Shown here: positions 48,575 to 64,000 of the stretch, one piece after another
How positions within the stretch are numbered: the first letter of the stretch is position 1
Layout of the letters: each line of letters opens with the position of its first letter
NCBI GenBank assembly: GCA_000004985.1
Contig: GG738908.1
Length of the DNA stretch: 64,000 nt
Source: Naegleria gruberi
Taxonomy: Eukaryota
Direction: 5' to 3' (one strand)
Translations under genes and position numbers: made by a program
The notes under the pieces: model-generated
Seen by the model: only the letters and a program-made list of their open reading frames with translations
Told to the model about the DNA's origin: nothing
Databases searched by the model: none

Positions 48575-51025
48575 CTATTTCAAATGATGAAGAAGTGCCT
48601 CACATCTTGTATGAATTTCTTCAATAGAGGGACAATTACTTTCATCAACCCCAAACTTTTCTCTATAGAGTTTGAGTTTTTCCTCAAAAGTTTCATTCTT
48701 AAATTTATCAACCATACCTTTCAAAGTTTTCTTATTCTTCTTTACATAATTATCAAATAGTTCCTTAACTTTCTTTCCAGGAGATTTTACAAAGAGAAGT
48801 TCAGTAAATTTACTCTTCTTTGCTGTAGGAATTGTTTGACGATTTTCATCCAAATCTATACCAAATGCTTCATTAGAATCCAAATTAACGATCACATTAT
48901 TCAAGTGAACATCTCCAATTCCTAAAATATATCTTCCAATAAAATCTGTTGAAATTGATTCATAAATTTTTGATGAAATATCTTCTTGAGTTTTGAAGTA
49001 TTCTGTTGCAAGTGAAATTCCAAGACATTTCCTATCTTTAACAATATTGTGCTTATTGAGATTCTCTCCCTTATCCTTAATATCAGAATCAGTCATATCA
49101 GAACCAATTCTAATATATCTGAGATAGTAGTTCGAATCACTTTCGAATTTCACAACTGTTGGAATTAAAATATTACTCAAACCAATCTCAGTATTCAATA
49201 AATTTGTTCTAAATTGAATTTTCCTAATATTGACCATATCTTTTTCATTTGTTTGGCTATAAGGTCCTTTGAATACATATTCACTAGTAATGTAAACCTT
49301 CTTCTTTGAACTACTTGTAGGAGTTTGACCAATAGGACATTCGAGAATATTCTCACAAAGTTCTGTATCTAATAATTCAAAATCAGAAATCATTTCAATT
49401 TTTGTTTTCTTCTTGATTCTCAGTTTTGGAGTTGATTTTCTCTTTTTTGATTCCACTTTCTCTTCTTCATCACTTGAATCCTCTTCTTCATCACTATCTT
49501 CTTCCTCTTCTTGTTCAAAGTTTTTCACCCATTTTTTGTAAACATCTGGATAAATGCTATTAGTTCTAGCCTTTTTTGTTGTATTCTTTTCTTCCAGATT
49601 CATGTAAATTTTGTAAGCTTCATCCATATATATATTGTCAATGTTCAAAACTAAACTCTCATCTAATTTTAATCCTTCATCAAGAAAATGTGACATTTGA
49701 GTAGGAAGTCCCTCTTTCTGATTCTTAAATCTCTTAATAACATTTGGATGTGATTTGTTGAGCTCGTCTTCACCCCATTCTGAAATATCAATCTTCTTAT
49801 TCTTACAATATTTCTTCAAAGTTGTTCTTGTATCCTTCCCTTTACCAGCATGAGTGTGTTTATCAAAGTAAACATCTAACATTGTCATTTCTCTTCTTTT
49901 TGATAATAATGAAGCATCTGGCTTTTCTACAACATTGGAATATAATCTTTCCATAGAATCCTTAATAGATTCTTCATCAGTAATTTCATCATAATCAATA
50001 TTCTCCCATTCATCATCAATTTGTAACATTTGAGACCTCACTGCATACAGTATACCACACTGGACATTAAGTTTGAGCGATCCAACTCCCAAACAAATAA
50101 TTTCCATCAATGATAATATATTCAAAAGTCTCATTTCCTTATTATTAACTTCCATTTTCAATAATTTACCCAATATGAAATGGAACAAACAAATTAATAA
50201 TCTTGACTGATGCTTAGAAGTGTCGTCCATACTATATATACAATATTTCTTTACAAAATTAATACAATCATCCCTCTTCTCTTTTTTGAGATATTCCAAT
50301 ACTGACCTCACCATCTTTTGCTTATTATTTTCTACTTTCTTCTTTTCAATTTCTTCCATCATTATTATACAATGTGTTAATTGCAACAATTCAATTTCAC
50401 TTTTCTTTACAGTTTCAAGTTTTTCATTTGTTTTTCCATTTTCCAAATAATCATTCCAATTTGTAAATGTTTCATCAAATACTTTTTCAAAATTCTTTAA
50501 AATCAATTCAGCATCCATTCCTTTTGTTTCATTAATATTATGAACCCATTTCAAATTATTAGAAATCTTTCCATCATTTTCCAATTCTGTAAATTCACTA
50601 TTCAAAGCAACAATACTTCCCATAGCAGCAATTCTAGATTTCAAAGTCCTACAAACAGACAAAGCACCACCAACCAGCATTTTCCTACTCTTTTCTGATT
50701 CCTTCCAAGCAGTACTAGTTTTGTTTTTACATTCCTTCTTTACATGTTTCTTCCAATCAACGTATAATTCTAATAATTGAATTGGTAACTCCAAGCTTCC
50801 GAAACAATCTTCGCATGCATAAGTAAACAAATCTTCGAATGTACCATTTCCATAACCAGAAACATCCTGTTCAATCGTATAAAACAAGACATCATTCGAA
50901 AGGTTTCTTCTACATGCTTTTTGAATAGAACTAACGCAAGCACTATATTCATACAAGTGTTTAGTGTGAGAGATTCCTAAAGGCATTTTTTTATGTTGTA
51001 AATTGTTAACAAATGCACTTATCAT
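48575..51025 (-). CDS. Large protein with a C-terminal atypical kinase-like region (PI3K/PI4K-type catalytic-loop-like motif)
   Basis: ...FIGRYILGIGDVHLNNVIVNLDSNEAFGIDLDE... resembles the G[IL]GD[R]HxxN[IL] catalytic loop plus a DFG-like FGIDLD, but with R->V. There is an acidic EEEEDSDEEEDSSDEEE stretch. ATG at 51025. Confidence 0.35.
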   Translation of the reverse strand: MISAFVNNLQHKKMPLGISHTKHLYEYSACVSSIQKACRRNLSNDVLFYTIEQDVSGYGNGTFEDLFTYACEDCFGSLELPIQLLELYVDWKKHVKKECKNKTSTAWKESEKSRKMLVGGALSVCRTLKSRIAAMGSIVALNSEFTELENDGKISNNLKWVHNINETKGMDAELILKNFEKVFDETFTNWNDYLENGKTNEKLETVKKSEIELLQLTHCIIMMEEIEKKKVENNKQKMVRSVLEYLKKEKRDDCINFVKKYCIYSMDDTSKHQSRLLICLFHFILGKLLKMEVNNKEMRLLNILSLMEIICLGVGSLKLNVQCGILYAVRSQMLQIDDEWENIDYDEITDEESIKDSMERLYSNVVEKPDASLLSKRREMTMLDVYFDKHTHAGKGKDTRTTLKKYCKNKKIDISEWGEDELNKSHPNVIKRFKNQKEGLPTQMSHFLDEGLKLDESLVLNIDNIYMDEAYKIYMNLEEKNTTKKARTNSIYPDVYKKWVKNFEQEEEEDSDEEEDSSDEEEKVESKKRKSTPKLRIKKKTKIEMISDFELLDTELCENILECPIGQTPTSSSKKKVYITSEYVFKGPYSQTNEKDMVNIRKIQFRTNLLNTEIGLSNILIPTVVKFESDSNYYLRYIRIGSDMTDSDIKDKGENLNKHNIVKDRKCLGISLATEYFKTQEDISSKIYESISTDFIGRYILGIGDVHLNNVIVNLDSNEAFGIDLDENRQTIPTAKKSKFTELLFVKSPGKKVKELFDNYVKKNKKTLKGMVDKFKNETFEEKLKLYREKFGVDESNCPSIEEIHTRCEALLHHLK

Positions 51026-51365: not shown

Positions 51366-54300
51366 TTAAATTGTTGTTGGATTATCAAAATGAACATCAA
51401 TAACATCAATAGTAGAGAAGGTCTTCATGGCAATGCTATATGGCTGTCTGTGGCCTATGGTCGGAGTTGTAGAATCACGATGTTCAAATCTAAAAGCATT
51501 TTGAGAAGAATTTGATTGTAATGTGGAGGAAGTCACAACTCTTTCGTATTGAGGATTAGGAGGAGCCTCCTTGTTGGTTTCCTTTGCATTATCCCTCTTT
51601 CTCTTTTCTCTCACTATAATACAGCCAACAGTTATTGGAATAGCGATGAAACAACCACAACAGATAAATATTGGAATCAAGATTACAGCAGCTGCTCCAC
51701 TACTGTCATTGCTAAGTGGTGCGTTAATGTCATTTGGAAGAGTTTGTTCAAGGTAATCAGCAGTTATTCCAACCATTGAATTGTTCATGAGGTTGGAAAG
51801 AGAGGATAAATCACACAAACAATGGACAATGAGAGTTTGTTCACTTGCTTTGATATCTGTCAATAATTGGAAAGATGTCTTGACAAATTTACAACTTGAT
51901 TCAGTTTCAAAATTTGTAAAATCAAGAGTCAAACTGCATCTGAATGTTTGATTGGTTCTTGAACTGATTGGTGCAATATAGGATGGAATTGGAATATTGA
52001 TATGAACACTTCCTGTCAATGAATTTGAAATGTTCAATTGTGAAACATATTCCTTTTTTACATCTTCAACTTTTCTTGATAATTTGGTTGGGAATTTGAA
52101 TAATGAATTTGCAATATTGACCATTTGAATGGTGGAAATCATGGAAACACTAAAAGAGACCAATGAACTATTAGAATTGGAGAAGGAAAAACTATTTGAG
52201 TTCAGTGCTGAAATAGATGTTTTTACAGCATTAATAGAAACCAAATTGGATGGTTTTTCACCTGGGAAAAAGTCTAAAGTTGTCAATTCTGTTTTAGTAC
52301 CCAAAGAAATAGCAGCATTCACAATTGAAGATGCCAATTTGATGGTTGATGTTTCTGGAATCTTTGATGCGACATTTACCAAAATTTCAGAAAGTGAATT
52401 TGAAGAATCTGATGACCAAACAGCTGCCTTACTTGAAATATCAACAAACTTGTTAATCATGTCAACAGTTTTCGATGTAGTTTCTTCTGTTAAGAATTGA
52501 GGTTTTGAAAGTACTTTGACTTGGTTCATGTAATTGGACATGTCTTCAGAAGTGACTGAATTTTGTGCAAGATTTGTATCTAATTGAGTAGAAAGAGATG
52601 TTGCTGTTGCATTTAAGGCGAGTGGAATAATTTTAGAAATTTCACTAATGACAGAATTATTTTGGGCCACTGTACCGATATTAGAAACAATTGAAATAAC
52701 CAAATCATTGCTCTTATGGAAATCATTTGTTGGACTTGATAACGAGTTTGAAAGAGAGGAAACTACATCATTTGTGAACAAACTATTGGTACTGAACTCG
52801 ATGACGTTTGTCAACTTGATAGGCATTGTTAGTTTACCACCAGTTTTGGTGTCTGAAAAGAGAATTTTGAAATTTGAACCAAATTTTGTAGTCTTGAAGG
52901 ATATTGGGAAGGATACCGATGTTGCAACGATACTATCTTCATTAAGAAGTGTCATACTAATGGTAGAGAGTGGATTTCCCATGGTACAAGAAAGCTTTCC
53001 AATTGTAAAACCAACTTCAAGTTTAGAAGGAGTGATGGTACAATCTTTGAGTTTGATTTGATCAGATAGAGAATCTTGTACAGTGACTGGAACTGTAACA
53101 TCTGTAACGTCGCTGGTTCCCATCAAGGAGAGGGTAAAGTATTTACCAACATTTTGAATTGTTGAATCTTTGGATTTGAGTTTTCCGTTTTTATATTGCA
53201 ATGGGAGTAAGTATCTCGTACCACTAACAAAAATTGAAGCTAATGGATATCTTTCAAATTGTGAACCAATGTAACGAATATCAACTTGGCAATTAGAAGC
53301 TTGGGATGTCAAAATATCCAAAAAGTAAGTTGTAGATTCTTCCAAGGATGGAATAACATTATTAACTTTCATACCAGTTAAAGTTGCTCCAAGTACGTTG
53401 CATGATGATACATCTATGCGAGTATCAGGGATGAATGAAACCACTTGGGTGGATTTTCCAATGACAACTGGTTGATTTTCAGAATTGGTCATGAGGTTCA
53501 ATAAATCAGGGGCTGGTGCTACTGAATAATAATATGATTGGAGACATGCAACTGTAAAGGTATGATCAATGGTCATATTAAAATCAGGGTAAATTGTATT
53601 CACTGGTACTGAAACAGTTGCAGAGGAAGTCTCTAAACTAATCTTCCTGTACACGTGATTATTTTCCAACAGCAGGAAAACAATTGATTTTTGTAAAGAC
53701 TCTGCACCATAATAATTCTTGCAAGTGAGTGTAATACTAGGAATTCTGGATGGCTTATACACAATCAGTGATTCCTTGATCAAAACAGTTGGAGCAATCA
53801 TTTGTAATTGGAATGGAAGTGTTGTACCATCAATAAGTTCTATTGTGAATGACAAATTCTCACTGAATGTTTTTGGTTTGATAACAATTGCTTTTTCAGT
53901 TGTTTCCCAATTAAAATAATAAGTTGGATAGGTAGAATGGACTTGGAAGGAAACAGTTCTGGCGTCGACACATTCTTGATTCTCAGCGAAGAATTGGGCA
54001 AGGGGTATTGTTGCTTGCGTAGAGGTCATTACAATCTTGGTTGTTGGAACTTTGAGTAGTAATTTTGGATAGGATCCTTCGATTGGGAACGAAAGGTTTT
54101 TGGTGTATGTTAAACCAAAATTAGAAATCACACTGACAGACATGTCAATAGTAGAAAGCTTTAAAATATCTGAAACATATGGGAAAGTCCATTCCAATTG
54201 ATTTTGGGAATTTTGAATGGCATCACTCACTAATTTGTTAGACATTAAGGCAACTGAATTTCCTGTCAATTCCCAAGTCATTGCTTGGAAATTTCCATGT

Positions 54301-57300
54301 TCTGGTTGAGAATATTCAGCCTTAACATTGCTTTCAAAACATCTATTCATCGATTTGGAACTGATCTTTCCATTGGAAATTTTAGCAGAAACTCCATCAT
54401 AATAATGTTGGAAGGAGCTCAAAAAGGCACTCACATCTAATTGGACGGAAACGTATTTGTCAGACTTTGGATTCGACCAAAATACGTTGAACATTATTGG
54501 TTCTCTTGGACTGAAGATTGCATCTGATTGAGATACATATGCTTTGATGGTATATCTGTAACTGTGCAGGTCAGAATTCAATCTATTTTCTGTTACATAA
54601 CATAGCATTGGATAAGAAGTGGAACTCTTGGTGACTAACTTGTCAATATTTCCAAATATTTTCTCGCAATCCACCTTTGAACTAGTGTATCTGTAATTAC
54701 TATTGGTAACAATGCTGAAAGCTGCCAATTTTTTTCCAATTCCCCAAAGATTTTGATCCATATTCAAGTCAACTGAATAATCAAAATAGGTAGCTTGATC
54801 TGATTCCAAGAAATTGAAACAATCATCACCAAAGTGAGCTCCTATACAACCAGAACACGATTGTCCAGTGTAATAGTCGAGACATTGTTCACAATAAGTA
54901 CCATTGGATCTCGTATTGCATTTACAAACATTGTAGGAGGTACAAGTTCCTCTATAATTACAAACTGATTCTTCAGAGTGTGGTACATTGTCACATGTCC
55001 AATTTCCACACTTTGACCCATAGTAACCGGTAATGCAATCTTGGCAGGTATCTCCCTTAATAGTTTCCGATTCACAGACACAGATGTTTACAGATTTACA
55101 ATGACCTCTTGCTGAACAAACGGCTGGTGAAGAATTTTCAATTCCTCCACATGTCCATTTTTCACAATGAGTGCCATAATAACCATCTTCACAAGTTTGG
55201 CAATTACTACCAATGGATTTTGGTCTCGTACAAGAGCAAGTATCGAGAGCTGTACATATACCATTTCCATTGCAAACATTTGGATCCATGAAATGAGTTC
55301 CATTACATGTGAATTGTTCACAATTTTCACCAAAATATCCATCAGTACAGTTACAGTTATTGTAATCAACACATGTACCCTTAGAGGAACAGACTCTTGG
55401 TTGTGAGCTATCAGTTCCGTTACAACCAAAACTTTGACACATGCTTCCGTAATAACCAGTCTTGCAAGAACAAATACCAGGTTTCACACAAGTACCTTGC
55501 CCAGAGCAAACATCAGTTTCGTTTGCTACTTTCCCAAAACAAATTGGAAGTTCACAATTTTTACCTGCATAACCAGTACTACATTCACACAAGTCAATGT
55601 CCGTACATTTTCCATGGTTTGAACAGACACCATAACTACTCTTGGAAATTCCAAAACATGCGGCTTCAATTTCACAAGCATCACCATAATAACTACGATC
55701 ACAAGCACAGGTACTATTGAAAAAACAAGTACCTCTTCCATGACAAGATCCTGAATTGTAGCTTGACAAATCTTCACAAAAACCATAAGGAACACAAGTA
55801 CCTGAATCACTAGGAGAAATGGATGCAGAACAAGAGCAAGTGTTTGGACCAGTACATTTACCTTTTCCATTGCATACATTAGGGTTGGTAGCTTCGAGAT
55901 CATAACAAACAGGAGTATTACAGGAGGCCCCTGTGTAGCCACTTGCACATGAATATGTTGGCCAGTAGCCATAATGGTACCAAATGGAATCAACAACAGC
56001 GCCACAAGACATGGATGCTCCAACTAAATCGAGGCCACTAGGGACGTACTCAATATTACCACCCCAGCAACCATTTGCACCGTAGCTGTTCTTATTAGTA
56101 TCAAATCTAATACATGCCAATGTTGTGGATGCCCAAATCCAGAAACCATAGTCTCTATACTCGTGATGAATTTTAGTGATGTATTCATCATCAGCAAGTG
56201 TAAATTCAGTTTCCCGATTATCGCTGCTACCAATTGATTGACTGGTACCATCTCTAAACCTGAATTCGATACCGTACACATAGTCACTACTGTGTTTAAT
56301 TTTCATTCCTTTGATAAATTTAGATGTTGACTGCGGTGAACTCGTTTTACCTCCGTAGCTTGCACTACTTGTCACATACTGATATTCTGTACCTAAATAA
56401 TAACCATTAGAACTAAAAGACAAGGCTTTCAACTCTTTGGAAGTACCAGAAAGTCTAATGTAAATGATTGGCTTTTGCTCGCCTACATAATTATTGGAAT
56501 TCACAATAGGACTTGATGTTGAGACGATAAAACTATCAGTAATATCGTATTCTGTTGATAGTTGTTGAACTTGAATGATTTTTCCTTCCAGATGTCTGAA
56601 TCGGAATTGATACACACTCTTAGATTGAGCTTGCATAGTTCTGCTATTACCATCCACAATTGAATAAGGATCAGCGCTTGTACCAGTAATGACTGTTGCA
56701 ATGGTATTGTCTCGCTCAATTGACAATGAATGGATCTTGAAATAATCTTGTTTGAACTGGGAAATTTGAATGAAATTCTTTGTGAATGTAAATGTTGTCT
56801 TGATATAATCATATTGCAGAAGGAAGATATTTGGAGAGATTGCATTTCCATTCAAAAAACAATCAGCTTCACATGACAAGAGAATGTTGAGCTTCCCCAA
56901 TGAATCGAACTTAATTTTTGGAGTGGGAATCATGGCAGATGAACTGTGGAAGACTTTCTGAGAATGGACATAGGATCCATCCTTTGGATTTAACAATAGA
57001 ACCCATAGGGAAGACTGATGAGGTAAATATTCCTTATTTTCCCCATCAATGATCAGTTGGAATTCTTGTGTATCAAAGAACGAAACAACAACCCGATCAT
57101 ATACTACCGAGTAGTGAATAGCCATAACTTTACACTTTGTTGTGTCTTCACAACCTGCTATTGCCTTCTTTAGAATAACTTGATCTTTGTAAATGATCAA
57201 GTAAATTTGATATCCTTTCTGCATAATGAAGTATCTCTTTCCGCTTACATTGTCAATGTACATTGCTTGAATAGAATATCCAATCAAATTACTAAAAGGG

Positions 57301-57833
57301 GTGACAGATTGTACAACTCCTGCTGATGAAAGAGTTGCCATAAATGGTATATTCTTAAAGCTTGAGAATGTCTGTGAGGTGACTTGGAAACGTCCAATAC
57401 AAACTGGATACTGAGCAACAAAATACCCAGTCAACAATATATCTGCTTTGGAATTGAGGAATGTAATAGATTCACCCTCAAGTTGTGCTCCTCCACAATC
57501 ATCCTTTATGTTTACCTCCAGGAAGGAATTAAAAGTTTCACCAGAACGAACATTTCCCTGAATCATCACTCGTGAGGAATTTAAACTTGGAAGTGGAACC
57601 TTAATCAACATGTAATGTTTTTCATTATTGTCGGAAATTACATCCACAAAGGACGAACCCTCCCCAAGTGTTTTAATGGTACTGTCAAAATTCTTGATGA
57701 GGCCGTATTTGCAGTTTGGTGCAATCTTGGTCATATCTGAGCAAGGTTCCCCTAAACCTGCCTTAATCACATCAAATATTGAACATGATACAATTAAGAA
57801 AATTAGAACAAACGGCAAGACTGTTGTTCTCAT
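51366..57833 (-). CDS. Giant (2155 aa) type-I transmembrane glycoprotein: signal peptide, beta-rich N-terminal domain, jacalin-like lectin-type segment, ~14 tandem EGF-like/tenascin-type repeats, a long S/T-rich stalk, a TM helix and a short cytoplasmic tail
   Basis: The signal peptide is MRTTVLPFVLIFLIVSCSIFDVIKA. The EGF-like repeats take the form C..G.C.....C.C..GY.G..C. The TM helix is AAAVILIPIFICCGCFIAIPITVGCIIV, followed by REKRKRD. ATG at 57833. Confidence 0.8.
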   Translation of the reverse strand: MRTTVLPFVLIFLIVSCSIFDVIKAGLGEPCSDMTKIAPNCKYGLIKNFDSTIKTLGEGSSFVDVISDNNEKHYMLIKVPLPSLNSSRVMIQGNVRSGETFNSFLEVNIKDDCGGAQLEGESITFLNSKADILLTGYFVAQYPVCIGRFQVTSQTFSSFKNIPFMATLSSAGVVQSVTPFSNLIGYSIQAMYIDNVSGKRYFIMQKGYQIYLIIYKDQVILKKAIAGCEDTTKCKVMAIHYSVVYDRVVVSFFDTQEFQLIIDGENKEYLPHQSSLWVLLLNPKDGSYVHSQKVFHSSSAMIPTPKIKFDSLGKLNILLSCEADCFLNGNAISPNIFLLQYDYIKTTFTFTKNFIQISQFKQDYFKIHSLSIERDNTIATVITGTSADPYSIVDGNSRTMQAQSKSVYQFRFRHLEGKIIQVQQLSTEYDITDSFIVSTSSPIVNSNNYVGEQKPIIYIRLSGTSKELKALSFSSNGYYLGTEYQYVTSSASYGGKTSSPQSTSKFIKGMKIKHSSDYVYGIEFRFRDGTSQSIGSSDNRETEFTLADDEYITKIHHEYRDYGFWIWASTTLACIRFDTNKNSYGANGCWGGNIEYVPSGLDLVGASMSCGAVVDSIWYHYGYWPTYSCASGYTGASCNTPVCYDLEATNPNVCNGKGKCTGPNTCSCSASISPSDSGTCVPYGFCEDLSSYNSGSCHGRGTCFFNSTCACDRSYYGDACEIEAACFGISKSSYGVCSNHGKCTDIDLCECSTGYAGKNCELPICFGKVANETDVCSGQGTCVKPGICSCKTGYYGSMCQSFGCNGTDSSQPRVCSSKGTCVDYNNCNCTDGYFGENCEQFTCNGTHFMDPNVCNGNGICTALDTCSCTRPKSIGSNCQTCEDGYYGTHCEKWTCGGIENSSPAVCSARGHCKSVNICVCESETIKGDTCQDCITGYYGSKCGNWTCDNVPHSEESVCNYRGTCTSYNVCKCNTRSNGTYCEQCLDYYTGQSCSGCIGAHFGDDCFNFLESDQATYFDYSVDLNMDQNLWGIGKKLAAFSIVTNSNYRYTSSKVDCEKIFGNIDKLVTKSSTSYPMLCYVTENRLNSDLHSYRYTIKAYVSQSDAIFSPREPIMFNVFWSNPKSDKYVSVQLDVSAFLSSFQHYYDGVSAKISNGKISSKSMNRCFESNVKAEYSQPEHGNFQAMTWELTGNSVALMSNKLVSDAIQNSQNQLEWTFPYVSDILKLSTIDMSVSVISNFGLTYTKNLSFPIEGSYPKLLLKVPTTKIVMTSTQATIPLAQFFAENQECVDARTVSFQVHSTYPTYYFNWETTEKAIVIKPKTFSENLSFTIELIDGTTLPFQLQMIAPTVLIKESLIVYKPSRIPSITLTCKNYYGAESLQKSIVFLLLENNHVYRKISLETSSATVSVPVNTIYPDFNMTIDHTFTVACLQSYYYSVAPAPDLLNLMTNSENQPVVIGKSTQVVSFIPDTRIDVSSCNVLGATLTGMKVNNVIPSLEESTTYFLDILTSQASNCQVDIRYIGSQFERYPLASIFVSGTRYLLPLQYKNGKLKSKDSTIQNVGKYFTLSLMGTSDVTDVTVPVTVQDSLSDQIKLKDCTITPSKLEVGFTIGKLSCTMGNPLSTISMTLLNEDSIVATSVSFPISFKTTKFGSNFKILFSDTKTGGKLTMPIKLTNVIEFSTNSLFTNDVVSSLSNSLSSPTNDFHKSNDLVISIVSNIGTVAQNNSVISEISKIIPLALNATATSLSTQLDTNLAQNSVTSEDMSNYMNQVKVLSKPQFLTEETTSKTVDMINKFVDISSKAAVWSSDSSNSLSEILVNVASKIPETSTIKLASSIVNAAISLGTKTELTTLDFFPGEKPSNLVSINAVKTSISALNSNSFSFSNSNSSLVSFSVSMISTIQMVNIANSLFKFPTKLSRKVEDVKKEYVSQLNISNSLTGSVHINIPIPSYIAPISSRTNQTFRCSLTLDFTNFETESSCKFVKTSFQLLTDIKASEQTLIVHCLCDLSSLSNLMNNSMVGITADYLEQTLPNDINAPLSNDSSGAAAVILIPIFICCGCFIAIPITVGCIIVREKRKRDNAKETNKEAPPNPQYERVVTSSTLQSNSSQNAFRFEHRDSTTPTIGHRQPYSIAMKTFSTIDVIDVHFDNPTTI

Positions 57834-58237
57834 ATTGAGTTGTTGAGTGTTTTGTTTTTCGGATTTTGGAGAAGGGACGCAAAGTCGATGAGGCCAACAC
57901 TTTTGACACTCAATTCACACCCACACAATTTGTGGTTGCATATTTCCTGTTGTTTGGTCCACTGTAAATAGTGTTAAAAAGGGTGCAGATGGGCTCACAT
58001 AGAGTCCACCACAGCCCTTCTCCAAAATTGTAAATCTTGAAAAATAACAACTTATTAAGACTTGATTACAGTTGCCAAGGGCGCAAACAGTAAATGAAGG
58101 AAATTGCCAGCACGCAAACAACAACATTTTGAGGTGTGAATGCACAGTTTGTCACAGATGTTTGCCTCTTCGTCAATGCGTCTTCTTTTGAAGCAAAACT
58201 TGAAAAAAACAACAACACAAACAAACAACACTCAGAG
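57834..58237. promoter_or_regulatory. Shared divergent (bidirectional) promoter region between the two head-to-head EGF-repeat paralogues
   Basis: A 404-bp spacer lies between the two start codons (57833 on the minus strand, 58238 on the plus strand). Its GC content is higher than that of typical spacers in this window. Confidence 0.4.
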
Positions 58238-61200
58238 ATGAAACTTCTTCATCATCACTATTTAACTTTCCTGTTATTGTTGTGGGTAGCGAGCTGTGTA
58301 GTGGCTGTGACCTTAGAACCATGCGCGGACATGACCAAAACAGCTCCTTATTGTAAGAATGGCCTCACTAAGAATTTTGAAAAATCCATCAAGGTATTTG
58401 ATGGTAGTTGGGAATTAAGGGATTCAATTGCTGACCAAAATGAGAGACACTATATGTTAATTAAGGAAAATTCATCAAAGATTATCATTCAGGGAAATCA
58501 ACGTTACGGCTCAAATTTCACACAGTTCTCATCTACCACAATTCAAGATGATTGTGGACAAGCAAATATTGAGGGAGAATCAATAAGGTTTTTGAACTCT
58601 GATGGGCAAATTCTATTGAGTGGTTGGTTTGTGGCCAGTGAATCTGTTTGCATTGGTGATTTTCACGTGTATCCACAACAAAATTCTTCAGCAAACTCAA
58701 CAGATCTCGCAGAAACTAGTATCCCTTTTTTAGCAATTCTTTCACCAATTACTGCTGCTGTGCAATCAGTGGTAACTCTTACGGATATGATTGGGTTCAG
58801 CCTGCAATCCTTGGATATAGATCAATATACTGGTAAGATTTACTTGATTATGCAAAACAAGACTCAAATCAACTTGGTGACACTCTTCAAGAATCAAATC
58901 ATTCTCAACCAGCAAATTGCAACCTGCCAAGATCCAACCAAGTGCCAAGTCTTGTCTATTCACTTCTCTGCCTTGTATGAAAGAATTATTGTCTCTTTCT
59001 TTGAGAAGTCTTCCTTTCAATTAACAATTGCTGGCGATATGAAAACGTATTCATCTTATCAATCAGCTCAATGGGTACTATTGCTCAATAAGGATGGATC
59101 CTATATTCACAACCAAAGAATCTTTCATAGCTCGGACTCTGTTATGTCCACACCTAAAATCAAGTTTGATTCTATTGGAAAACTCAACATTCTCCTTATT
59201 TGTGAAAGAAATTGTTACCTTAATGAAGATGCTGTTTCACCAAATGTATTCCTTCTTCAGTATGATTATGTAAACACAGTCTATTCATTTGTGAAGAACT
59301 TTATTTCTACAACTGGAAATTTCACATTCACCATTCATTCACTCTCTGTTGAAAGAGATTTAACACTGACTACTGTAATCTCACCACTTAATTCAGTTTC
59401 GTATACAATTAAAGATGTAGCAGGAAGATCTATGCAAGCTGTAAATAATACTGTCTATCAGTACAGATTCAGACATGTTGATGGAAAGATTATTCACATT
59501 CTTCCTCTCACTTCTGAAGTTGATTTGACTAATGCATTCCTAGTTTCAACTTCCAGTCCAGTTGTCAACACTAACAACTTTATAAGAGAACAGAATCCAA
59601 TCCTTTACACAAGAACATCACCAATTACATACAAGACAGAACTTTTTGTTCAAGCATATATTTATTATGGCAATAGAGATAATGAAAAGGACTATACCTA
59701 CATCTCGAAAAGTCCTAGATATGGTGGTGATAGTGGAGCTGGAGATCCAACAACCCAAAAGGTGTCAAGAATTGATATTTTGGGTGATGGATACGTTTAT
59801 TGCTTCAAATTCACATACACCGATGGAGCTATCAAATATTTTAATGAAGCAAGATGTATTGGTAGAGTTATCACTGCCTATTTAGACAATGATGAATATA
59901 TCAAGGAGATGAGCCACGATTATACCACCTTTGGGAGTGCGCAGATATTGCTTTGCATTTCGTTTAAAACAAACAAACAAACCATCAATTTTTTATGTGA
60001 CAACAAAGTGAAATTTGTGGAATATGTCCCAGAAGGATTAGAGGTAATAGGGTTTGGAGTTAAAAGTGGTTATTGTATTGATTCAATCTCCTATATGTAT
60101 GGCTATACCAATACTTATTCATGTGCCAACGGTTACAGTGGTGATGACTGTTCAGCCCCAGTATGTTATGATGTTGATTCTTCCAGTAAGTTGGTGTGTA
60201 ATGGAAATGGTCGATGTGCAGGTCCTAATAATTGCTCCTGTATGTCATCAAGTGTTAACACTGACTCTCACAATTGTGCATCATATTCATTTTGTAATGA
60301 TGTTTCATCCAACAGCGTGGCCATATGTTCTGGAAGAGGATCATGCCATTACAATGGAACATGTAGTTGTGAAAAAGGTTACTACGGAAATGAATGCTCA
60401 ATCGAAGCACAATGTTTTGGTATTCCAAAGAGCAGTTATGGAACTTGCTCTAATCATGGTAATTGTTTAGACATTGATACTTGCGAATGTAATGTAGGTT
60501 ACACTGGAAGAAATTGTGAACTCCCAATTTGTTTCGGAAAGGCGGCTAACACTTCAGGTATTTGTTCTGGACATGGATCTTGTGTGAGGCCAAGTGTCTG
60601 TTCTTGCAAAACTGGTTACTATGGTCCAAAATGTGAATATTTCTATTGTAATGGAACTGCCAATGCTTCTCCATCAGTTTGTTCATCAAAAGGTGGCTGT
60701 ATAGACTACAACAAATGTGTTTGTAAGGAAGGTTACTATGGTCCAAACTGTGAGCTCTATAATTGTAGTGGAATTGTGTATAATGATCCAAATGTTTGTT
60801 CAGGAAACGGACAATGCATTGGAGTAAATAATTGCGCATGTACCACTCCAAGATCTAGTGGTCAATCGTGTGAAAAATGTGATTCTGGTTACTTTGGGTC
60901 TCACTGTGAAAAGTTCACATGTGGCAACATTGAGAGCACCTCTCCAACCGTATGTAGTGGAAGAGGCATTTGTAAATCTTTAAATACTTGCATTTGTGAA
61001 AATGACAATATTAATGGAAAGCTTTGTGAAAGTTGCATCACTGGTTACTATGGGGAAAAGTGCACCAATTGGACATGTAATGGTATTCCAAGTACTAATA
61101 GTTCAGTTTGTAATTATAGAGGAGTTTGTTCTTCGTATAACAATTGTGTATGTAATAGCAGATCATATGGCACATATTGTAATCAGTGTATTGGATTCTA

Positions 61201-64000
61201 TGTTGGACAAACATGTGGATCATGTGCTGGATCTCATTATGGTGATGAGTGCTACAACTTTTTAGAATCAAATAAGGCCCCATATTTGAATTATCAAAAT
61301 GGTTTCATAATTATAACCAATACCAATTTTAGATTCCAGCAGGGAACTGTTGATTGTTCTCGTGTGTTTGAAAATGTTGGTGATATTTCTAAAGTTATCA
61401 ATGTTGTAACTTGTAAAGTTACAGAAATTGGACTCAATTTGGATAAACGAAGTTATAGATATACTATTGAAGTAACTATACCAAATAACTATGCAATTTT
61501 CAATCCAAGAAACCCTATCAGCTTCAACGTTATGTGGTCATCAACTAAAGCTCCTATTTATCAAATGGTCAACTTGGATATAAGTGACTTTTTGAAGAAT
61601 GAACAACCTTATTATCGTGGAGTATATTTCCAAGTGACCAATGGAGTTGCTAGTGGTAAAACAATTAACAGATGTTTTGAAACCAAAATCAAGGCATATT
61701 ATTCTCAGCCAGAATTTGGTACTTTCCAAAGCTTAACTTGGAATTTGACTGGAAACTCTGTATCATTAATGAAAAACAAATTAGTGAGCGATGCCATCCA
61801 AAATGCTCAAAACAAGCTCGAGTGGACTTTCCCTTACATTCCAGAGCTATCTCACTTTGGTTATATTGAATTATCTGTCAGTGTTGTCACTAATTTTGGT
61901 TTGAAATATACTTCTAGTGATGCGCTGAGCGTGAGTGGAAGCTACAGAAAAACACCTTACTATTTCCCAAGAACAACATTCCTTCTCACATCTAACGAAC
62001 TTACAATCCCATTATCACAATACTTTTCAGAAAATCTGGAATGCATTGATGGAAGAACTATTTCATACACAATTTCTAAACATTTCAAAATATTGGATAG
62101 TTACTTTTCTTTGGAGTTTACAGAAAAGGATATTGTCTTCAAAGCAAAGACCACTTCTATGTATATGTTTATTACAATCCAAATGATAGATGGTACTCAA
62201 ATTCTACTCAATTTCAATTTCAAACCTCCAACAGTTTCAATTAAGGAAACTGTAGTTGTTTACAAAGAATCAAGTGTTCCAACTTTGACTCTTTCTTGCA
62301 AGTATTATTATGGAAGAGATCAAATTTCCATTCCACAGATGATGTTAATAATGGAAAATAATCAAGTTTATAAGAGAATTATGATGGCTCAAACAGACGA
62401 AACTGTTTCATTGCAAGTCAATCAATTGTATCCTTGGTTTGATTTAACGATTCCTCACACCTTCACTGTTGCTTGCTTGCGGTCAACTGATTATGCTCTT
62501 TCTGACCTTTCTTCTCTTTCAAGAGTTATTACAAACTATAACAGTATCCTACCAGTTGTTGGAATTACAACACAAACAGTTTCCTTTATATCTGAAACAA
62601 TTAATGATTATTCTTCATGTAAGGTCCTTGGTGCAAGTTTGATTGGTTTAAAGTCAAATACCATTCCATTCCCAGAAATTTGGACTACCTATTTCCTTGA
62701 GATTTTGACAACTCAAGCTCCAAACTGCCAAGTTGATATTTCATATATTAATTCTCAAAATGAAAAATATATGTTAGATAATGTTTCTGTGAGTGGTTCT
62801 AAATATGTACTTCCATTACAATTTTTAGAAAGAAAGCTCAAATCTAGGTTGACAACAATTTCAAATCTCTACAATTATTTCACACTTTCCTTAAAAGGAT
62901 CCAATGATTTAGTTGAAAAAACTACCAATTTAATTGTACAAGATTCATTGTCTTCCATTGTTAATGTTGCTGATTGTACCATTTCTCCTTCAAAGATTGA
63001 AATTGGCTTTACACTTGCAAAACTTTCATGCTCAATATCTCCACCCTCCACATACTTAATGACACTTTATCATGAAGATTCTATTGTGGCAACTTCGTAT
63101 TCCTCACCAATTTCATTCAAGTTTTCAAAGAGTGGTAAGAATTTCAAGCTTCAATTCCTAGATGAAAAAACAGGAGGACAAACAACTTTGCCAATAACCC
63201 TGATGAACCAAATTGAGTTTAGTACAAGCAGTTTGTTTACAGATGAATTGGTTTCATCTATATCAAGTAGTCTGGCAAATTCAAGTTCAGATTATTTCAA
63301 GAATAATGATTTGGTAATTTCAATGGTTTCTAATTTCAATTCTCTTTCTTCAAATAATTCTATTGTTATGGGAGAAATTCAAAGAATAATTCCAGCTGCT
63401 TTAGCTGCCACTACTTCTTCAGTTTCCACCCAACTGGATGTCAATCTAGCCCAAGGATCTGTGACATCCGAAGCAATTTCTAAATATATCAATCAAGTCA
63501 AAATTCTTTCAAAACCTGAATTCCTTACTAAGGAAAGTACAATGTCAACTGTTGATATGATTAACAAGTTTGTTGATATTTCAAGTAAGGCAGCTGTTTG
63601 GTCATCAGATTCTTCAAATTCACTTTCTGAAATTTTGGTAAATGTTGCAGCAAATATCCCAGAAAGTTCTACTATCAAATTGGCATCTTCAATTGTGAAT
63701 GCTGCTATTTCGTTGGGAACTAAGGCCGAGTTGACAACTTTAGACTTTTTCCCAGGTGAAAAACCATCCAATTTGGTTTCTATTAATGCTGTCAAGACTT
63801 CAGTAGCCTTTTTGAATTCGAATAGTTTTTCCTTCTCCAATTCTAATAGTTCATTGGTCTCTTTTAGTGTTTCCACGGTTTCCACCATTCAAATGGTCAA
63901 TATTGCAAATTCATTATTCAAATTCCCAACCAAATTATCAAGAAAAGTTGAAGATGTAAAAAAGGAATATATTTCACAATTGACCATTTCAAATTCATTG
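58238..64000 (+). CDS. Paralogue of the 51366..57833 gene (EGF-repeat giant TM glycoprotein). The 5' end is complete and the 3' end runs off the window.
   Basis: Manual translation from ATG 58238: MKLLHHHYLTFLLLLWVASCVVAVTLEPCADMTKTAPYCKNGL.... This is collinear with the minus-strand gene and roughly half the residues are identical (...PKIKFDSIGKLNILLICE...; EGF repeats CNGNGRCAGPNNCSC...; ...KLVSDAIQNAQNKLEWTFPY...). The frame stays open to 64000. It is not in the ORF track because it is incomplete. Confidence 0.8.
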   Translation, partial: MKLLHHHYLTFLLLLWVASCVVAVTLEPCADMTKTAPYCKNGLTKNFEKSIKVFDGSWELRDSIADQNERHYMLIKENSSKIIIQGNQRYGSNFTQFSSTTIQDDCGQANIEGESIRFLNSDGQILLSGWFVASESVCIGDFHVYPQQNSSANSTDLAETSIPFLAILSPITAAVQSVVTLTDMIGFSLQSLDIDQYTGKIYLIMQNKTQINLVTLFKNQIILNQQIATCQDPTKCQVLSIHFSALYERIIVSFFEKSSFQLTIAGDMKTYSSYQSAQWVLLLNKDGSYIHNQRIFHSSDSVMSTPKIKFDSIGKLNILLICERNCYLNEDAVSPNVFLLQYDYVNTVYSFVKNFISTTGNFTFTIHSLSVERDLTLTTVISPLNSVSYTIKDVAGRSMQAVNNTVYQYRFRHVDGKIIHILPLTSEVDLTNAFLVSTSSPVVNTNNFIREQNPILYTRTSPITYKTELFVQAYIYYGNRDNEKDYTYISKSPRYGGDSGAGDPTTQKVSRIDILGDGYVYCFKFTYTDGAIKYFNEARCIGRVITAYLDNDEYIKEMSHDYTTFGSAQILLCISFKTNKQTINFLCDNKVKFVEYVPEGLEVIGFGVKSGYCIDSISYMYGYTNTYSCANGYSGDDCSAPVCYDVDSSSKLVCNGNGRCAGPNNCSCMSSSVNTDSHNCASYSFCNDVSSNSVAICSGRGSCHYNGTCSCEKGYYGNECSIEAQCFGIPKSSYGTCSNHGNCLDIDTCECNVGYTGRNCELPICFGKAANTSGICSGHGSCVRPSVCSCKTGYYGPKCEYFYCNGTANASPSVCSSKGGCIDYNKCVCKEGYYGPNCELYNCSGIVYNDPNVCSGNGQCIGVNNCACTTPRSSGQSCEKCDSGYFGSHCEKFTCGNIESTSPTVCSGRGICKSLNTCICENDNINGKLCESCITGYYGEKCTNWTCNGIPSTNSSVCNYRGVCSSYNNCVCNSRSYGTYCNQCIGFYVGQTCGSCAGSHYGDECYNFLESNKAPYLNYQNGFIIITNTNFRFQQGTVDCSRVFENVGDISKVINVVTCKVTEIGLNLDKRSYRYTIEVTIPNNYAIFNPRNPISFNVMWSSTKAPIYQMVNLDISDFLKNEQPYYRGVYFQVTNGVASGKTINRCFETKIKAYYSQPEFGTFQSLTWNLTGNSVSLMKNKLVSDAIQNAQNKLEWTFPYIPELSHFGYIELSVSVVTNFGLKYTSSDALSVSGSYRKTPYYFPRTTFLLTSNELTIPLSQYFSENLECIDGRTISYTISKHFKILDSYFSLEFTEKDIVFKAKTTSMYMFITIQMIDGTQILLNFNFKPPTVSIKETVVVYKESSVPTLTLSCKYYYGRDQISIPQMMLIMENNQVYKRIMMAQTDETVSLQVNQLYPWFDLTIPHTFTVACLRSTDYALSDLSSLSRVITNYNSILPVVGITTQTVSFISETINDYSSCKVLGASLIGLKSNTIPFPEIWTTYFLEILTTQAPNCQVDISYINSQNEKYMLDNVSVSGSKYVLPLQFLERKLKSRLTTISNLYNYFTLSLKGSNDLVEKTTNLIVQDSLSSIVNVADCTISPSKIEIGFTLAKLSCSISPPSTYLMTLYHEDSIVATSYSSPISFKFSKSGKNFKLQFLDEKTGGQTTLPITLMNQIEFSTSSLFTDELVSSISSSLANSSSDYFKNNDLVISMVSNFNSLSSNNSIVMGEIQRIIPAALAATTSSVSTQLDVNLAQGSVTSEAISKYINQVKILSKPEFLTKESTMSTVDMINKFVDISSKAAVWSSDSSNSLSEILVNVAANIPESSTIKLASSIVNAAISLGTKAELTTLDFFPGEKPSNLVSINAVKTSVAFLNSNSFSFSNSNSSLVSFSVSTVSTIQMVNIANSLFKFPTKLSRKVEDVKKEYISQLTISNSL

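What the first reader, a model, noticed from the sequence alone, without database searches (positions are those of the whole stretch)
51366..64000. Head-to-head pair of diverged paralogous genes for giant EGF-repeat receptor-like glycoproteins sharing one promoter
This is an inverted duplication of at least 5.7 kb. The minus-strand gene (2155 aa) and the plus-strand gene (more than 1920 aa, truncated by the window) are collinear from signal peptide to S/T-rich stalk. Only about half the residues are identical, so the duplication is old but both copies remain intact. They diverge from a 404-bp shared spacer, which suggests co-regulation. The domain combination is unusual for a protist cell-surface protein: a beta-rich N-domain, a jacalin-like segment, ~14 tenascin-type EGF repeats, a mucin-like stalk, and a TM helix with a short tail. 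It could be an adhesion or recognition receptor family.
Basis: seen in the sequence. Interest (0 to 1): 0.7.

Follow-up and report, generated by a model that had tools for sequence, protein, structure and literature searches.

The report
Naegleria paired giant lectin-EGF surface receptors
Two neighbouring, back-to-back genes of the amoeba Naegleria gruberi are old duplicates that each encode a roughly 2150-residue cell-surface glycoprotein with a sugar-binding domain, EGF repeats and a possible GAIN-like module next to the membrane; both are real and intact, are already in public databases as unnamed "predicted proteins", and are of moderate rather than high interest.

Summary
Gene A (51366..57833, minus strand, 2155 aa) and gene B (58238 to beyond 64000, plus strand, 2153 aa in full) are head-to-head paralogs. 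They are 54% identical over 1956 aa and are separated by 404 bp. The window is Naegleria gruberi. The genes are NAEGRDRAFT_53095 (D2VXS6) and NAEGRDRAFT_73856 (D2VXS7), both deposited as "predicted protein"; both public models start at an internal Met and omit the signal peptide.

Pfam confirms a Jacalin lectin domain and tenascin/teneurin-type EGF repeats, but there are 8 full and 5 half repeats, not about 14. The "mucin-like stalk" is not supported. That region is predicted to be a helical bundle followed by beta strands carrying a conserved four-cysteine C…C…CxC motif just before the TM helix. Its best structural match in the PDB is the GAIN domain of BAI3 (Foldseek E 1.6e-4), though it lacks the HL^T/S site and matches no GPS or GAIN HMM.

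The N-domain looks like a beta-propeller (low confidence). The last ~750 bp before the TM region are homogenised (dS 0.22 versus more than 1.4 elsewhere), which indicates gene conversion. The C-terminal half has relatives only in N. gruberi, including a third, more diverged paralog.

Most likely function: glycan-binding adhesion or recognition receptors. Function and co-regulation are untested.

The parts
51366..57833 (-). Gene A, single exon, 2155 aa plus stop. It is N. gruberi NAEGRDRAFT_53095 / XP_002671134.1 / D2VXS6; the public model starts at Met34 (57734).
   Evidence: ORF; exact match of 51369..57734 to the public protein.
58238..64000 (+). Gene B, first 1921 of 2153 codons; it runs about 700 bp past the window end. 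It is NAEGRDRAFT_73856 / XP_002671087.1 / D2VXS7; the public model starts at Met32.
   Evidence: Translation; identity with P0002 over 1890 aa.
57834..58237 (.). 404-bp divergent spacer, 40% GC, with a unique central part of about 180 bp.
57840..57937 (-). Proximal upstream / 5' leader segment of gene A, homologous to the one in front of gene B.
   Evidence: Local alignment score 38 against 17.6 +/- 2.6 (maximum 33) in 300 shuffles; inverted repeats I1 and I2.
58117..58224 (+). Proximal upstream / 5' leader segment of gene B, the duplicated counterpart of 57840..57937.
57759..57833 (-). Gene A signal peptide (aa 1-25), missing from the public gene model.
   Evidence: Hydrophobic N-terminus; the public model starts at M34; gene B has an equivalent hydrophobic N-terminus.
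56394..57758 (-). Gene A N-domain (aa 26-480), all-beta and probably a beta-propeller.
   Evidence: AF2 model is all strands, pLDDT 50-82 for aa ~150-400 of the model. The top 50 Foldseek PDB hits listed are dominated by beta-propeller proteins, 44 with E <= 1e-3, but TM-scores are only 0.2-0.29. No Pfam or PDB sequence hit.
55983..56357 (-). Gene A Jacalin-like lectin domain (aa 493-617); a GxxxD motif (GAVVD) is retained near its C-terminal end.
   Evidence: Pfam PF01419 E 1.9e-10, 41.7 bits against cut-off 22. The A+B profile hits the Jacalin-related lectin 2jz4_A at 1.3e-7, plus ipomoelin, horcolin and others. Banana lectin and Heltuba are the best pairwise hits.
54819..55949 (-). Gene A EGF array (aa 629-1005): 8 six-Cys repeats and 5 two-Cys 'CxxGYYGxxC' half repeats. 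All 48 Cys positions are identical in A and B.
   Evidence: Pfam EGF_2, EGF_TEN, EGF_Teneurin; Cys map and regex; PDB hits WIF-1 and SCARF1 EGF.
52803..54809 (-). Gene A middle module (aa 1009-1677), no recognisable family.
   Evidence: No Pfam hit at E <= 10, no meaningful PDB hit, no internal repeats by BLAST. Relatives are found only in N. gruberi.
51735..52802 (-). Gene A candidate GAIN-like juxtamembrane domain (aa 1678-2033): a helical subdomain followed by a beta subdomain.
51747..51950 (-). GPS-like four-cysteine motif (aa 1962-2029): QTFRC-x14-C-x23-C-x-C-DLSSLS…SMVGITADYLE. It is conserved in all three paralogs and holds the only Cys residues between aa 1617 and the TM helix.
   Evidence: Three-way alignment; Cys map; each Cys lies in a predicted strand, in the order seen in GAIN (compared with PMC3321182).
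51612..51695 (-). Gene A transmembrane helix (aa 2047-2074).
   Evidence: Kyte-Doolittle window above 2.2; sequence position.
51369..51611 (-). Gene A cytoplasmic tail (81 aa), with NPQY about 25 aa after the TM helix and C-terminal PTTI. The counterparts are RPQY/PTTI in B and SIQY/PTSI in the third paralog.
   Evidence: Alignment of A, full-length B and P0003.
51735..52484 (-). Gene-conversion tract, gene A arm (aa ~1784-2033).
   Evidence: Nucleotide identity jumps from about 0.65 to 0.9-1.0. dS is 0.22 against 1.4 or more elsewhere. Protein-level near-identity continues to aa 2033 in full-length B.
63533..64000 (+). Gene-conversion tract, gene B arm; it continues beyond the window.
59720..60088 (+). 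Gene B Jacalin-like lectin domain (aa 495-617; GxxxD motif is GYCID).
   Evidence: Pfam E 7.1e-10.
60122..61252 (+). Gene B EGF array (aa 629-1005).
   Evidence: Pfam EGF_TEN 73.4 bits (above cut-off 65), EGF_2 E 3.9e-20; Cys map.

Best explanation
The locus is an ancient inverted tandem duplication in Naegleria gruberi. It gave rise to two single-exon genes, NAEGRDRAFT_53095 and NAEGRDRAFT_73856.

Each gene encodes a type I membrane glycoprotein of about 2150 aa with this order of parts: signal peptide, beta-propeller-like domain, Jacalin-type lectin domain, an array of tenascin/teneurin-type EGF repeats, a ~670-aa lineage-specific module, a ~350-aa juxtamembrane domain (helical bundle plus disulfide-stapled beta sandwich, GAIN-like), one TM helix, and an ~80-aa tail.

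Shown: the gene structure, the paralogy, purifying selection, the Jacalin and EGF domains, the TM topology, restriction of the C-terminal half to N. gruberi, and gene conversion of the juxtamembrane segment.

Inferred: the proteins sit on the amoeba surface and bind glycans of prey, substrate or other cells through the Jacalin domain, which is held far from the membrane by the rigid EGF array and the middle module. They would pass the signal on through the membrane-proximal GAIN-like domain and the tail. The tail's conserved [NRS]-[PI]-Q-Y and C-terminal P-T-[TS]-I motifs look like an NPxY-type sorting or adaptor signal and a class I PDZ-type ligand. That reading makes them lectin-type adhesion or recognition (possibly uptake) receptors.

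The two genes are probably transcribed divergently, each from its own duplicated proximal upstream segment across a 404-bp spacer.
For: - ORFs and paralogy.
- Identity with public N. gruberi proteins.
- Eukaryotic context (tubulin, RGS, cyclase genes).
- Jacalin and EGF domains above Pfam cut-offs in both copies. Jacalin-related lectins are hit in the PDB by the two-sequence profile and by the single domain.
- A GxxxD motif is retained at the C-terminal end of the Jacalin domain in both copies (read from the sequences; that this motif is the sugar-binding loop of mannose-type Jacalin-related lectins is my own knowledge).
- Signal peptide, TM helix, 20-21 N-glycosylation sequons and strictly conserved Cys positions.
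- Purifying selection.
- Conserved tail motifs.
Against: - There are no expression, localisation or binding data, and no paper mentions either gene.
- Both AF2 models have low confidence (mean pLDDT 45 and 54, from 2-3 sequences). The beta part of the GAIN-like model is below pLDDT 50, and TM-scores to GAIN structures are only 0.38-0.40.
- No GPS, GAIN or REJ HMM hit even at E <= 10.
- The HL^T/S cleavage triad and the conserved tryptophans of GPS motifs are absent (against PMC3321182).
- The second GxxxD site of banana lectin is not conserved.
- The tail motifs rest on three sequences only.
- In one metagenome contig of a near-identical strain, gene A carries an out-of-frame ~374-nt deletion in the EGF array, and its nonsynonymous to synonymous differences are 14:4. 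If that is real, gene A is dispensable in that strain.
Confidence: 0.6

Rival explanations
1. LDL-receptor/LRP-like endocytic cargo receptor. A beta-propeller and EGF modules capture a ligand, and the NPxY-type motif in the tail drives clathrin-mediated uptake. The main job would be nutrient or particle uptake rather than adhesion or signalling.
For: The best Foldseek matches of the N-terminal model are the YWTD propellers of LRP2/megalin and LRP6. EGF modules are present. Gene A's tail carries NPQY, with RPQY and SIQY at the same position in the paralogs.
Against: The propeller matches are generic: WD40, oligopeptidase and other propellers score equally, with TM-scores of 0.2-0.29 from a pLDDT-45 model. 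There are no LDL-A or LDL-B Pfam hits. The domain order differs from the LDLR family. The Asn of NPxY is present only in gene A.
Confidence: 0.12
2. Co-expressed heterophilic recognition pair, like Dictyostelium TgrB1/TgrC1. In that system two divergently transcribed paralogous surface proteins act as ligand and receptor for self/non-self or mating-type recognition (the TgrB1/TgrC1 comparison is from my own knowledge).
For: The two paralogous surface proteins are arranged head-to-head across a short spacer. The ectodomains are strongly diverged while the membrane-proximal module is homogenised. Differences from a second strain in gene A are mostly nonsynonymous, 14 against 4, whereas the tubulin protein is identical in the same sample.
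Against: Strain divergence is low (0.3-0.55% of nucleotides), nowhere near Tgr-like hypervariability, and 14:4 is about the neutral expectation. Head-to-head pairs with short spacers are common in this window. There are no IPT/TIG domains. N. gruberi has no known aggregative kin-recognition stage (my own knowledge).
Confidence: 0.08
3. Structural surface-coat or cyst-wall-associated glycoproteins with no receptor function. The TM helix would serve only as an anchor, and the juxtamembrane domain would be a SEA-like or otherwise non-GAIN spacer.
For: The proteins are very large, glycosylated and EGF-rich, with a lineage-specific middle module. There is no recognisable signalling domain in the tail. 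GPS and GAIN HMMs do not match.
Against: The tail motifs and the exact C-terminus are conserved across three paralogs that are otherwise about 33% identical. The Jacalin domain retains a GxxxD motif. GAIN is the best fold match.
Confidence: 0.12
4. One copy is a decaying duplicate, or the plus-strand frame is an accident of sequence.
For: A metagenome contig of a near-identical strain has an out-of-frame deletion in gene A.
Against: Both ORFs are intact over 2153-2155 codons in the reference. dN/dS is well below 1 along the whole length. All 48 EGF cysteines are conserved in position. The deletion may be an assembly artefact.
Confidence: 0.03

Closest known systems
[quoted passage not shown]
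   Same: A large glycosylated surface protein built, in the same order, from carbohydrate-recognition domain(s), EGF module(s), a module of several hundred residues, and a GPS/GAIN module directly before the first TM helix. SpREJ1 has one TM helix and a short tail (PMC1934368; PMC9672506). PKD1L1 and PKDREJ, like the Naegleria proteins, lack the HL^T/S tripeptide.
   Different: The lectin is Jacalin-type, not C-type. There are 8+5 EGF repeats instead of one. No REJ, PKD-repeat, PLAT or GPS HMM matches. There is an N-terminal propeller-like domain. No sequence homology is detectable, so the resemblance may be convergent.
GAIN domain of adhesion GPCRs (BAI3/ADGRB3 4DLO, ADGRB2 8OEK, ADGRL3 8VTI)
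   Same: About 350 residues, alpha-helical N-terminal subdomain followed by a beta subdomain. Four cysteines in a C…C…CxC pattern sit on the last strands. The domain lies immediately before the first TM helix. It is the best PDB fold match (definition in PMC3321182).
   Different: The receptor is single-pass, not 7TM or 11TM. Cys spacing is x14/x23 against roughly x18/x11. The motif reads C-x-C-D-L-S instead of C-x-C-x-H-L^T. There are no conserved Trp residues. About 10 extra residues lie between the CxC strand and the last strand. There is no HMM match, and the model confidence is low.
Jacalin-related lectins of the mannose-binding type (banana lectin, Heltuba, ipomoelin, horcolin, ZG16)
   Same: The beta-prism I Jacalin domain is recognised by Pfam and by PDB profile search. 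A C-terminal GxxxD motif is retained.
   Different: Here it is one domain inside a 2155-aa membrane protein rather than a small soluble lectin. The second GxxxD site of banana lectin is lost. Sugar specificity is unknown.
Amoebal surface lectins (Entamoeba histolytica Gal/GalNAc lectin heavy subunit; Acanthamoeba mannose-binding protein); comparison from my own knowledge
   Same: Cysteine-rich type I membrane lectins of phagotrophic amoebae with a short cytoplasmic tail, used for adhesion to prey or host.
   Different: No sequence relationship was tested or seen, and the carbohydrate-recognition modules and sizes differ. This is a functional analogy only.
Dictyostelium tgrB1/tgrC1 divergent gene pair; comparison from my own knowledge
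   Same: Two paralogous type I surface-protein genes placed head-to-head across a short shared intergenic region.
   Different: Tgr proteins are IPT/TIG-repeat proteins and are highly polymorphic. Here diversity against a second strain is 0.55% or less, and no interaction between A and B is known.

Membership tests
Jacalin-like lectin domain (Pfam PF01419) | Match to the family HMM above the curated gathering score | tested here: met
   A scores 41.7 bits and B 39.9 bits against a cut-off of 22; E 1.9e-10 and 7.1e-10, covering profile positions 4-133 of 136. The A+B profile hits the solved Jacalin-related lectin 2jz4_A at 1.3e-7.
Jacalin-like lectin domain (Pfam PF01419) | Carbohydrate-binding GxxxD loop near the C-terminal end of the domain (as in mannose-type Jacalin-related lectins; my own knowledge) | tested here: inconclusive
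   GAVVD in A and GYCID in B sit at the expected place (sequences), but the pairwise alignments printed did not extend over this loop. The second GxxxD site of banana lectin is not conserved. Binding was not tested.
EGF-like repeats, tenascin/teneurin type (Pfam EGF_2 PF07974, EGF_TEN PF25024) | HMM match above cut-off and the six-cysteine pattern | tested here: met
   EGF_2 scores 54.3 bits (A) and 72.3 bits (B) against cut-off 22.1. EGF_TEN scores 73.4 bits in B (cut-off 65) but only 39.7 in A. Eight C-x-C-x-C-x-CxC-x-C units were found by regex, plus 5 two-Cys half units.
GAIN domain (adhesion GPCR / PKD1 family; defined in PMC3321182) | Subdomain A of about six alpha-helices followed by subdomain B, a beta sandwich, about 320 aa in total | tested here: inconclusive
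GAIN domain (adhesion GPCR / PKD1 family; defined in PMC3321182) | GPS motif with four cysteines forming two disulfides between neighbouring terminal strands | tested here: inconclusive
   A C-x14-C-x23-C-x-C pattern is conserved in A, B and P0003, and these are the only Cys residues in a 430-aa stretch. The spacing differs from CL1 (C801, C820, C832, C834). The disulfides cannot be verified here.
GAIN domain (adhesion GPCR / PKD1 family; defined in PMC3321182) | Autoproteolysis site H-L^T/S after the CxC, and conserved tryptophans | tested here: not met
   The sequence is C-L-C-D-L-S-S (C-S-C-D-L-N-Y in P0003), with no His and no Trp in the motif. Some accepted family members (PKD1L1, PKDREJ) also lack HL^T/S, so this argues against cleavage more than against the fold.
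GAIN domain (adhesion GPCR / PKD1 family; defined in PMC3321182) | Position immediately N-terminal of the first TM helix | tested here: met
   The domain ends at aa 2033 and the TM helix starts at aa 2047 in A. B has an extra Asn-rich linker.
GAIN domain (adhesion GPCR / PKD1 family; defined in PMC3321182) | Sequence-profile match (Pfam GPS or GAIN) or a sequence hit to solved GAIN domains | tested here: not met
   No Pfam family at E <= 10 for aa 1678-2033 of A, and none relevant for P0003. The three-sequence profile finds no GAIN chain in the PDB at E <= 10.
REJ module / PKD1 family | REJ (PF02010), PKD-repeat or PLAT HMM match | tested here: not met
   No Pfam hit at E <= 10 for aa 1010-1678 and none in the full-length scans.
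LDL-receptor family | LDL-A and YWTD (LDL-B) repeats by HMM, with a six-bladed YWTD propeller flanked by EGF modules | tested here: not met
   No Ldl_recept_a or Ldl_recept_b Pfam hits. The only evidence is generic beta-propeller fold matches from a low-confidence model.
   Ser+Thr is at most 0.34 per 100 aa. Prolines are visibly few in this stretch of the translation. The region is predicted helical with pLDDT up to 86.

The most novel reading that the evidence does not exclude
The juxtamembrane module is a true, very divergent GAIN domain in a heterolobosean (Discoba) single-pass receptor. It would be built on the same 'lectin - EGF - large module - GAIN - TM' plan as sea urchin REJ1 and polycystin-1. 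That would push this receptor plan (or at least the GAIN fold) back to near the root of eukaryotes. It would also show a GAIN domain working without the HL^T/S site and without a 7TM/11TM partner. The gene conversion that homogenises exactly this module in the two head-to-head paralogs would then suggest that A and B share a partner, or pair with each other, through it.
Probability: 0.3. Interest if true: 0.6.

Novelty: new variant of a known kind. Interest (0 to 1): 0.35.

Why it matters
Little is known about how free-living heterolobosean amoebae recognise prey, surfaces and each other. These two genes, together with a third diverged paralog, are concrete candidates for surface lectin receptors in the model species N. 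gruberi. At present they are annotated only as "predicted protein", and the public models have truncated N-termini.

If the membrane-proximal module is a real GAIN domain, it would widen the known range of that fold to Discoba and to single-pass receptors without a canonical cleavage site. That bears on how adhesion-GPCR and polycystin-type ectodomains arose.

The locus is also a clean example of partial concerted evolution. A ~750-bp conversion tract sits inside an otherwise saturated ancient inverted duplication.

None of this overturns current views. It is a well-defined lead for wet-lab work rather than a surprise.

Tried and rejected
- Word-indexed protein search with full-length A found nothing. 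With the N-terminal 640 aa it found only a 99% identical metagenome fragment. The tool missed even gene B, so its negatives carry little weight.
- Exact-sequence look-ups of the full ORFs failed because the public models start at internal Met codons. They succeeded once A was trimmed to Met34.
- Pfam at E <= 10 and PDB profile searches for the middle and juxtamembrane modules gave no GPS, GAIN, REJ or SEA hit.
- A metagenome DNA scan with the juxtamembrane alignment matched 600 patterns, but none was confirmed.
- The AFDB Foldseek library was unavailable.
- Internal-repeat search by BLAST in the N-domain and the middle module found nothing.
- Literature searches for the locus tags, accessions, JGI ids, 'Naegleria + GAIN domain' and 'Naegleria/Jacalin/EGF' returned nothing relevant.
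- My early guess that the source was a dictyostelid (33% GC, tenascin-type EGF) was rejected once the proteins matched N. gruberi exactly.
- The bacterial promoter/terminator scan was not run because the source is a eukaryote.
- 'Mucin-like stalk' was rejected. 'About 14 EGF repeats' was corrected to 8+5.
Full report

Yes. The minus strand carries an uninterrupted ORF at 51366..57833 (2155 aa, ATG start). On the plus strand an ATG at 58238 opens a frame that stays open for 1921 codons to the end of the window. It is the first ATG after an in-frame stop 36 codons upstream. The spacer 57834..58237 is 404 bp.

BLASTP of the two products gives 54% identity and 71% positives over 1956 residues, with 3% gaps, collinear from the signal peptide onward. 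The DNA arms still align at 65-70% identity. No other copy lies in the window.

**2. Source and database status**

Neighbouring ORFs encode tubulin, an RGS protein and a cyclase-domain protein, so the window is eukaryotic; GC content is about 33%.

I ran an exhaustive HMMER search of 1.84 billion cluster representatives with a profile of the C-terminal 1150 residues. It returned only three proteins, all from Naegleria gruberi:

- P0002 is XP_002671087.1 / NAEGRDRAFT_73856 / D2VXS7. It is gene B itself, identical over all 1890 residues it shares with the window, and it supplies the missing C-terminus (full length 2153 aa).
- P0003 and P0004 (NAEGRDRAFT_67008 and 67007) are adjacent models on another scaffold. 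They align to aa 1598-2109 (33.5% identity) and aa 1223-1411 (29.6% identity) of A, so they are pieces of a third, more diverged paralog.

Gene A trimmed to Met34 is exactly XP_002671134.1 / NAEGRDRAFT_53095 / D2VXS6. All are labelled "predicted protein". No paper in the searchable library mentions them.

Both public models start at an internal Met (M34 in A, M32 in B). They therefore omit hydrophobic signal peptides that are present in both paralogs from the upstream in-frame ATG.

**3. Anatomy of the protein (gene A numbering)**

- aa 1-25: signal peptide.
- aa 26-480: no Pfam or PDB sequence match.
  - AF2 predicts an all-beta domain. Mean pLDDT is 45 for the whole 615-aa model, and 50-82 for the core.
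  - The listed Foldseek hits are dominated by beta-propeller proteins (LRP2/LRP6 YWTD, oligopeptidase B, WD40, DDB2), 44 of them at E <= 1e-3, but with TM-scores of only 0.2-0.29.
  - I read this as a probable beta-propeller of unknown type.
- aa 493-617: Jacalin-like lectin domain.
  - Pfam gives 41.7 and 39.9 bits against a cut-off of 22.
  - The A+B profile hits the solved Jacalin-related lectin 2jz4_A at 1.3e-7.
  - The best pairwise relatives are mannose-type lectins: banana lectin, Heltuba, ipomoelin and ZG16.
  - A GxxxD motif is kept at the C-terminal end (GAVVD in A, GYCID in B). The second GxxxD site of banana lectin is not.
- aa 629-1005: EGF array. There are eight complete six-Cys repeats plus five two-Cys "CxxGYYGxxC" half repeats. 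All 48 Cys are at identical positions in A and B. Pfam calls EGF_2, EGF_TEN and EGF_Teneurin.
- aa 1009-1677: no match to anything outside N. gruberi and no internal repeats by BLAST.
Ser+Thr is only 25-34%.
- aa 2047-2074: TM helix. aa 2075-2155: tail.

**4. The juxtamembrane module**

Between aa 1617 and the TM helix there are only four cysteines (C1966, C1981, C2005, C2007). They sit in a block that is conserved in all three paralogs: NIPxPSYxxPISxxxxQTFRC-x14-C-x23-C-x-C-D-L-x-x-L-S…SMxGxTAxYLE. A C…C…CxC pattern directly before the first TM helix is the signature of the GPS motif inside GAIN domains.

Araç et al. define the GAIN domain as follows (PMC3321182):

- It is about 320 aa long.
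- It has a six-helix subdomain A and a 13-strand beta-sandwich subdomain B.
- Two disulfides (C1-C3 and C2-C4) link neighbouring terminal strands.
- Cleavage occurs at HL^T.

AF2 on the three-sequence alignment gave 7 helices (pLDDT 65-86), then strands at low confidence (mean pLDDT 54). The four Cys lie on three consecutive predicted strands, in the GAIN order.

Evidence against:

- No GPS or GAIN HMM or PDB sequence hit, even at E <= 10.
- The Cys spacing differs from the canonical one.
- There are no conserved Trp residues.
- The motif reads D-L-S instead of H-L-T/S.
- About 10 extra residues separate the CxC strand from the last strand.
- TM-scores are only 0.38-0.40.

Accepted family members such as PKD1L1 and PKDREJ also lack HL^T/S (PMC9672506). 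I therefore call the module GAIN-like (probability about 0.55 for the fold, about 0.3 for true homology) and do not file it as a member. Autoproteolysis is not predicted.

**5. Evolution of the pair**

Outside the 3' end, synonymous sites are saturated (dS 1.4 to more than 2.8) while dN is 0.28-0.68. The duplication is therefore old and both copies are under purifying selection.

From A codon ~1784 (window 52484 downward) and B codon ~1766 (63533 upward), nucleotide identity jumps from about 0.65 to 0.9-1.0. In this tract dS is 0.22 and dN is 0.05. With the full-length B protein, the near-identity continues to the end of the GAIN-like module (aa 2033) and stops before the linker, TM helix and tail.

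This is a gene-conversion tract of about 750 bp between the inverted arms, covering the C-terminal two-thirds of the GAIN-like module. Whether the homogenisation is selected (for example by a shared partner) or accidental is unknown.

**6. The spacer**

The ~100 nt next to each ATG (57840..57937 and 58117..58224) are homologous to each other: score 38 against 17.6 +/- 2.6 in shuffles, maximum 33; inverted repeats I1 and I2. The duplication therefore included each gene's proximal upstream region, and only the central ~180 bp are unique. A perfect 14-nt inverted repeat (57863-57876 / 58015-58028) also lies in the spacer.

Other divergent ORF pairs in the window have spacers of 180 and 319 bp, so a short head-to-head spacer is normal for this genome. 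Co-regulation is plausible but untested.

**7. Function**

The proteins combine these features:

- A type I topology with 20-21 N-glycosylation sequons.
- A distal lectin domain on a long, rigid, disulfide-rich stalk.
- A conserved membrane-proximal module.
- A tail whose only conserved elements are [NRS]-[PI]-Q-Y about 25 residues after the TM helix and the C-terminal P-T-[TS]-I.

Given all this, the most likely role is a glycan-binding adhesion or recognition receptor of the amoeba surface, possibly coupled to uptake or cytoskeletal adaptors. The reading of the tail motifs as NPxY-type and PDZ class I-type signals is inference from three sequences.

The closest architectural analogue is sea urchin SpREJ1: lectin CRDs, one EGF, a REJ module, GPS, one TM helix (PMC1934368). 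More broadly it resembles the polycystin-1 ectodomain. No sequence homology supports common descent. The rivals (LDLR-like cargo receptor, Tgr-like recognition pair, structural coat protein, decaying duplicate) are listed with their evidence in the rival-explanations section.

**8. A second strain**

An ENA metagenome assembly (ERZ929261) contains this organism. Its tubulin protein is identical to the window's. One of its contigs (L002) covers the spacer and the first ~1430 codons of gene A at 99.4-99.7% identity.

Of the 18 coding differences in gene A, 14 are nonsynonymous and 4 synonymous, which is about the neutral ratio.

The contig also joins EGF repeat 4 (codon ~771) to repeat 7 (codon ~898) at equivalent positions within the repeats. 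It loses about 374 nt out of frame. This is either a real disruptive deletion in that strain or an assembly artefact, and I could not decide which.

**9. Verdict**

The genes are already public but uncharacterised.

New here:

- Corrected N-termini.
- The domain map.
- The candidate GAIN-like module.
- The conversion tract.
- The third paralog.
- Restriction of the C-terminal half to N. gruberi within the library searched.

Interest is moderate (0.35): a good experimental lead, but not a surprise for specialists unless the GAIN homology is proven.

Noticed in passing
window 57734..57833 (gene A) and 58238..58330 (gene B): The public N. gruberi gene models (XP_002671134.1 and XP_002671087.1, each 2122 aa) start at an internal Met (M34 and M32). 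They omit the signal peptides encoded from the upstream in-frame ATGs, so both annotations look N-terminally truncated.
   Followed up: yes
window 51735..52484 and 63533..64000 (continuing beyond the window): A gene-conversion tract lies between the inverted paralogs. It shows 90-100% nucleotide identity and dS 0.22, inside a duplication that is otherwise saturated at synonymous sites. It covers most of the GAIN-like module and stops before the linker, TM helix and tail.
   Followed up: yes
L002 (ENA ERZ929261 contig k127_79572) positions 2559-2563, against window 55144..55520: A metagenome contig from a near-identical Naegleria strain lacks about 374 nt of gene A's EGF array. It joins repeat 4 to repeat 7 at equivalent repeat positions but out of frame. 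This is either a real disruptive deletion or a misassembly. Gene A differences in that contig are 14 nonsynonymous to 4 synonymous.
   Followed up: partly
window 25536..25608 and 31872..31944: Two copies of a tRNA-Ala(AGC) gene sit within a ~135-bp repeat that is 94% identical. tRNA-Val(AAC) is at 8254..8327 (minus strand) and tRNA-Lys(CTT) at 27419..27491 (minus strand).
   Followed up: partly
window 57863..57876 and 58015..58028: A perfect 14-nt inverted repeat (ATTTTGGAGAAGGG / CCCTTCTCCAAAAT) lies inside the divergent spacer. It is not concentric with the duplicated leader segments. It may be a shared regulatory element or a remnant of the duplication.
   Followed up: no
window 48575..51025 (-): An 816-aa ORF lies directly downstream of gene A on the same strand. 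It has no Pfam match and no similarity to the A/B family. Its exact sequence is not in the protein collection, so the public gene model probably differs.
   Followed up: partly
window 30018..31364 (-), 44678..45916 (-), 38013..40829 (+), 13965..17162 (-): Neighbouring ORFs encode a tubulin, an RGS-domain protein, a protein with an adenylate/guanylate cyclase domain and a VWA-domain protein. These established the eukaryotic origin of the window.
   Followed up: partly
P0003/P0004 (NAEGRDRAFT_67008 and 67007, on another scaffold): Two adjacent short gene models are fragments of a third family member. It is about 30-34% identical to A and keeps the four-Cys motif, the TM helix and the C-terminal PTSI. 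The public annotation probably splits one large gene.
   Followed up: partly
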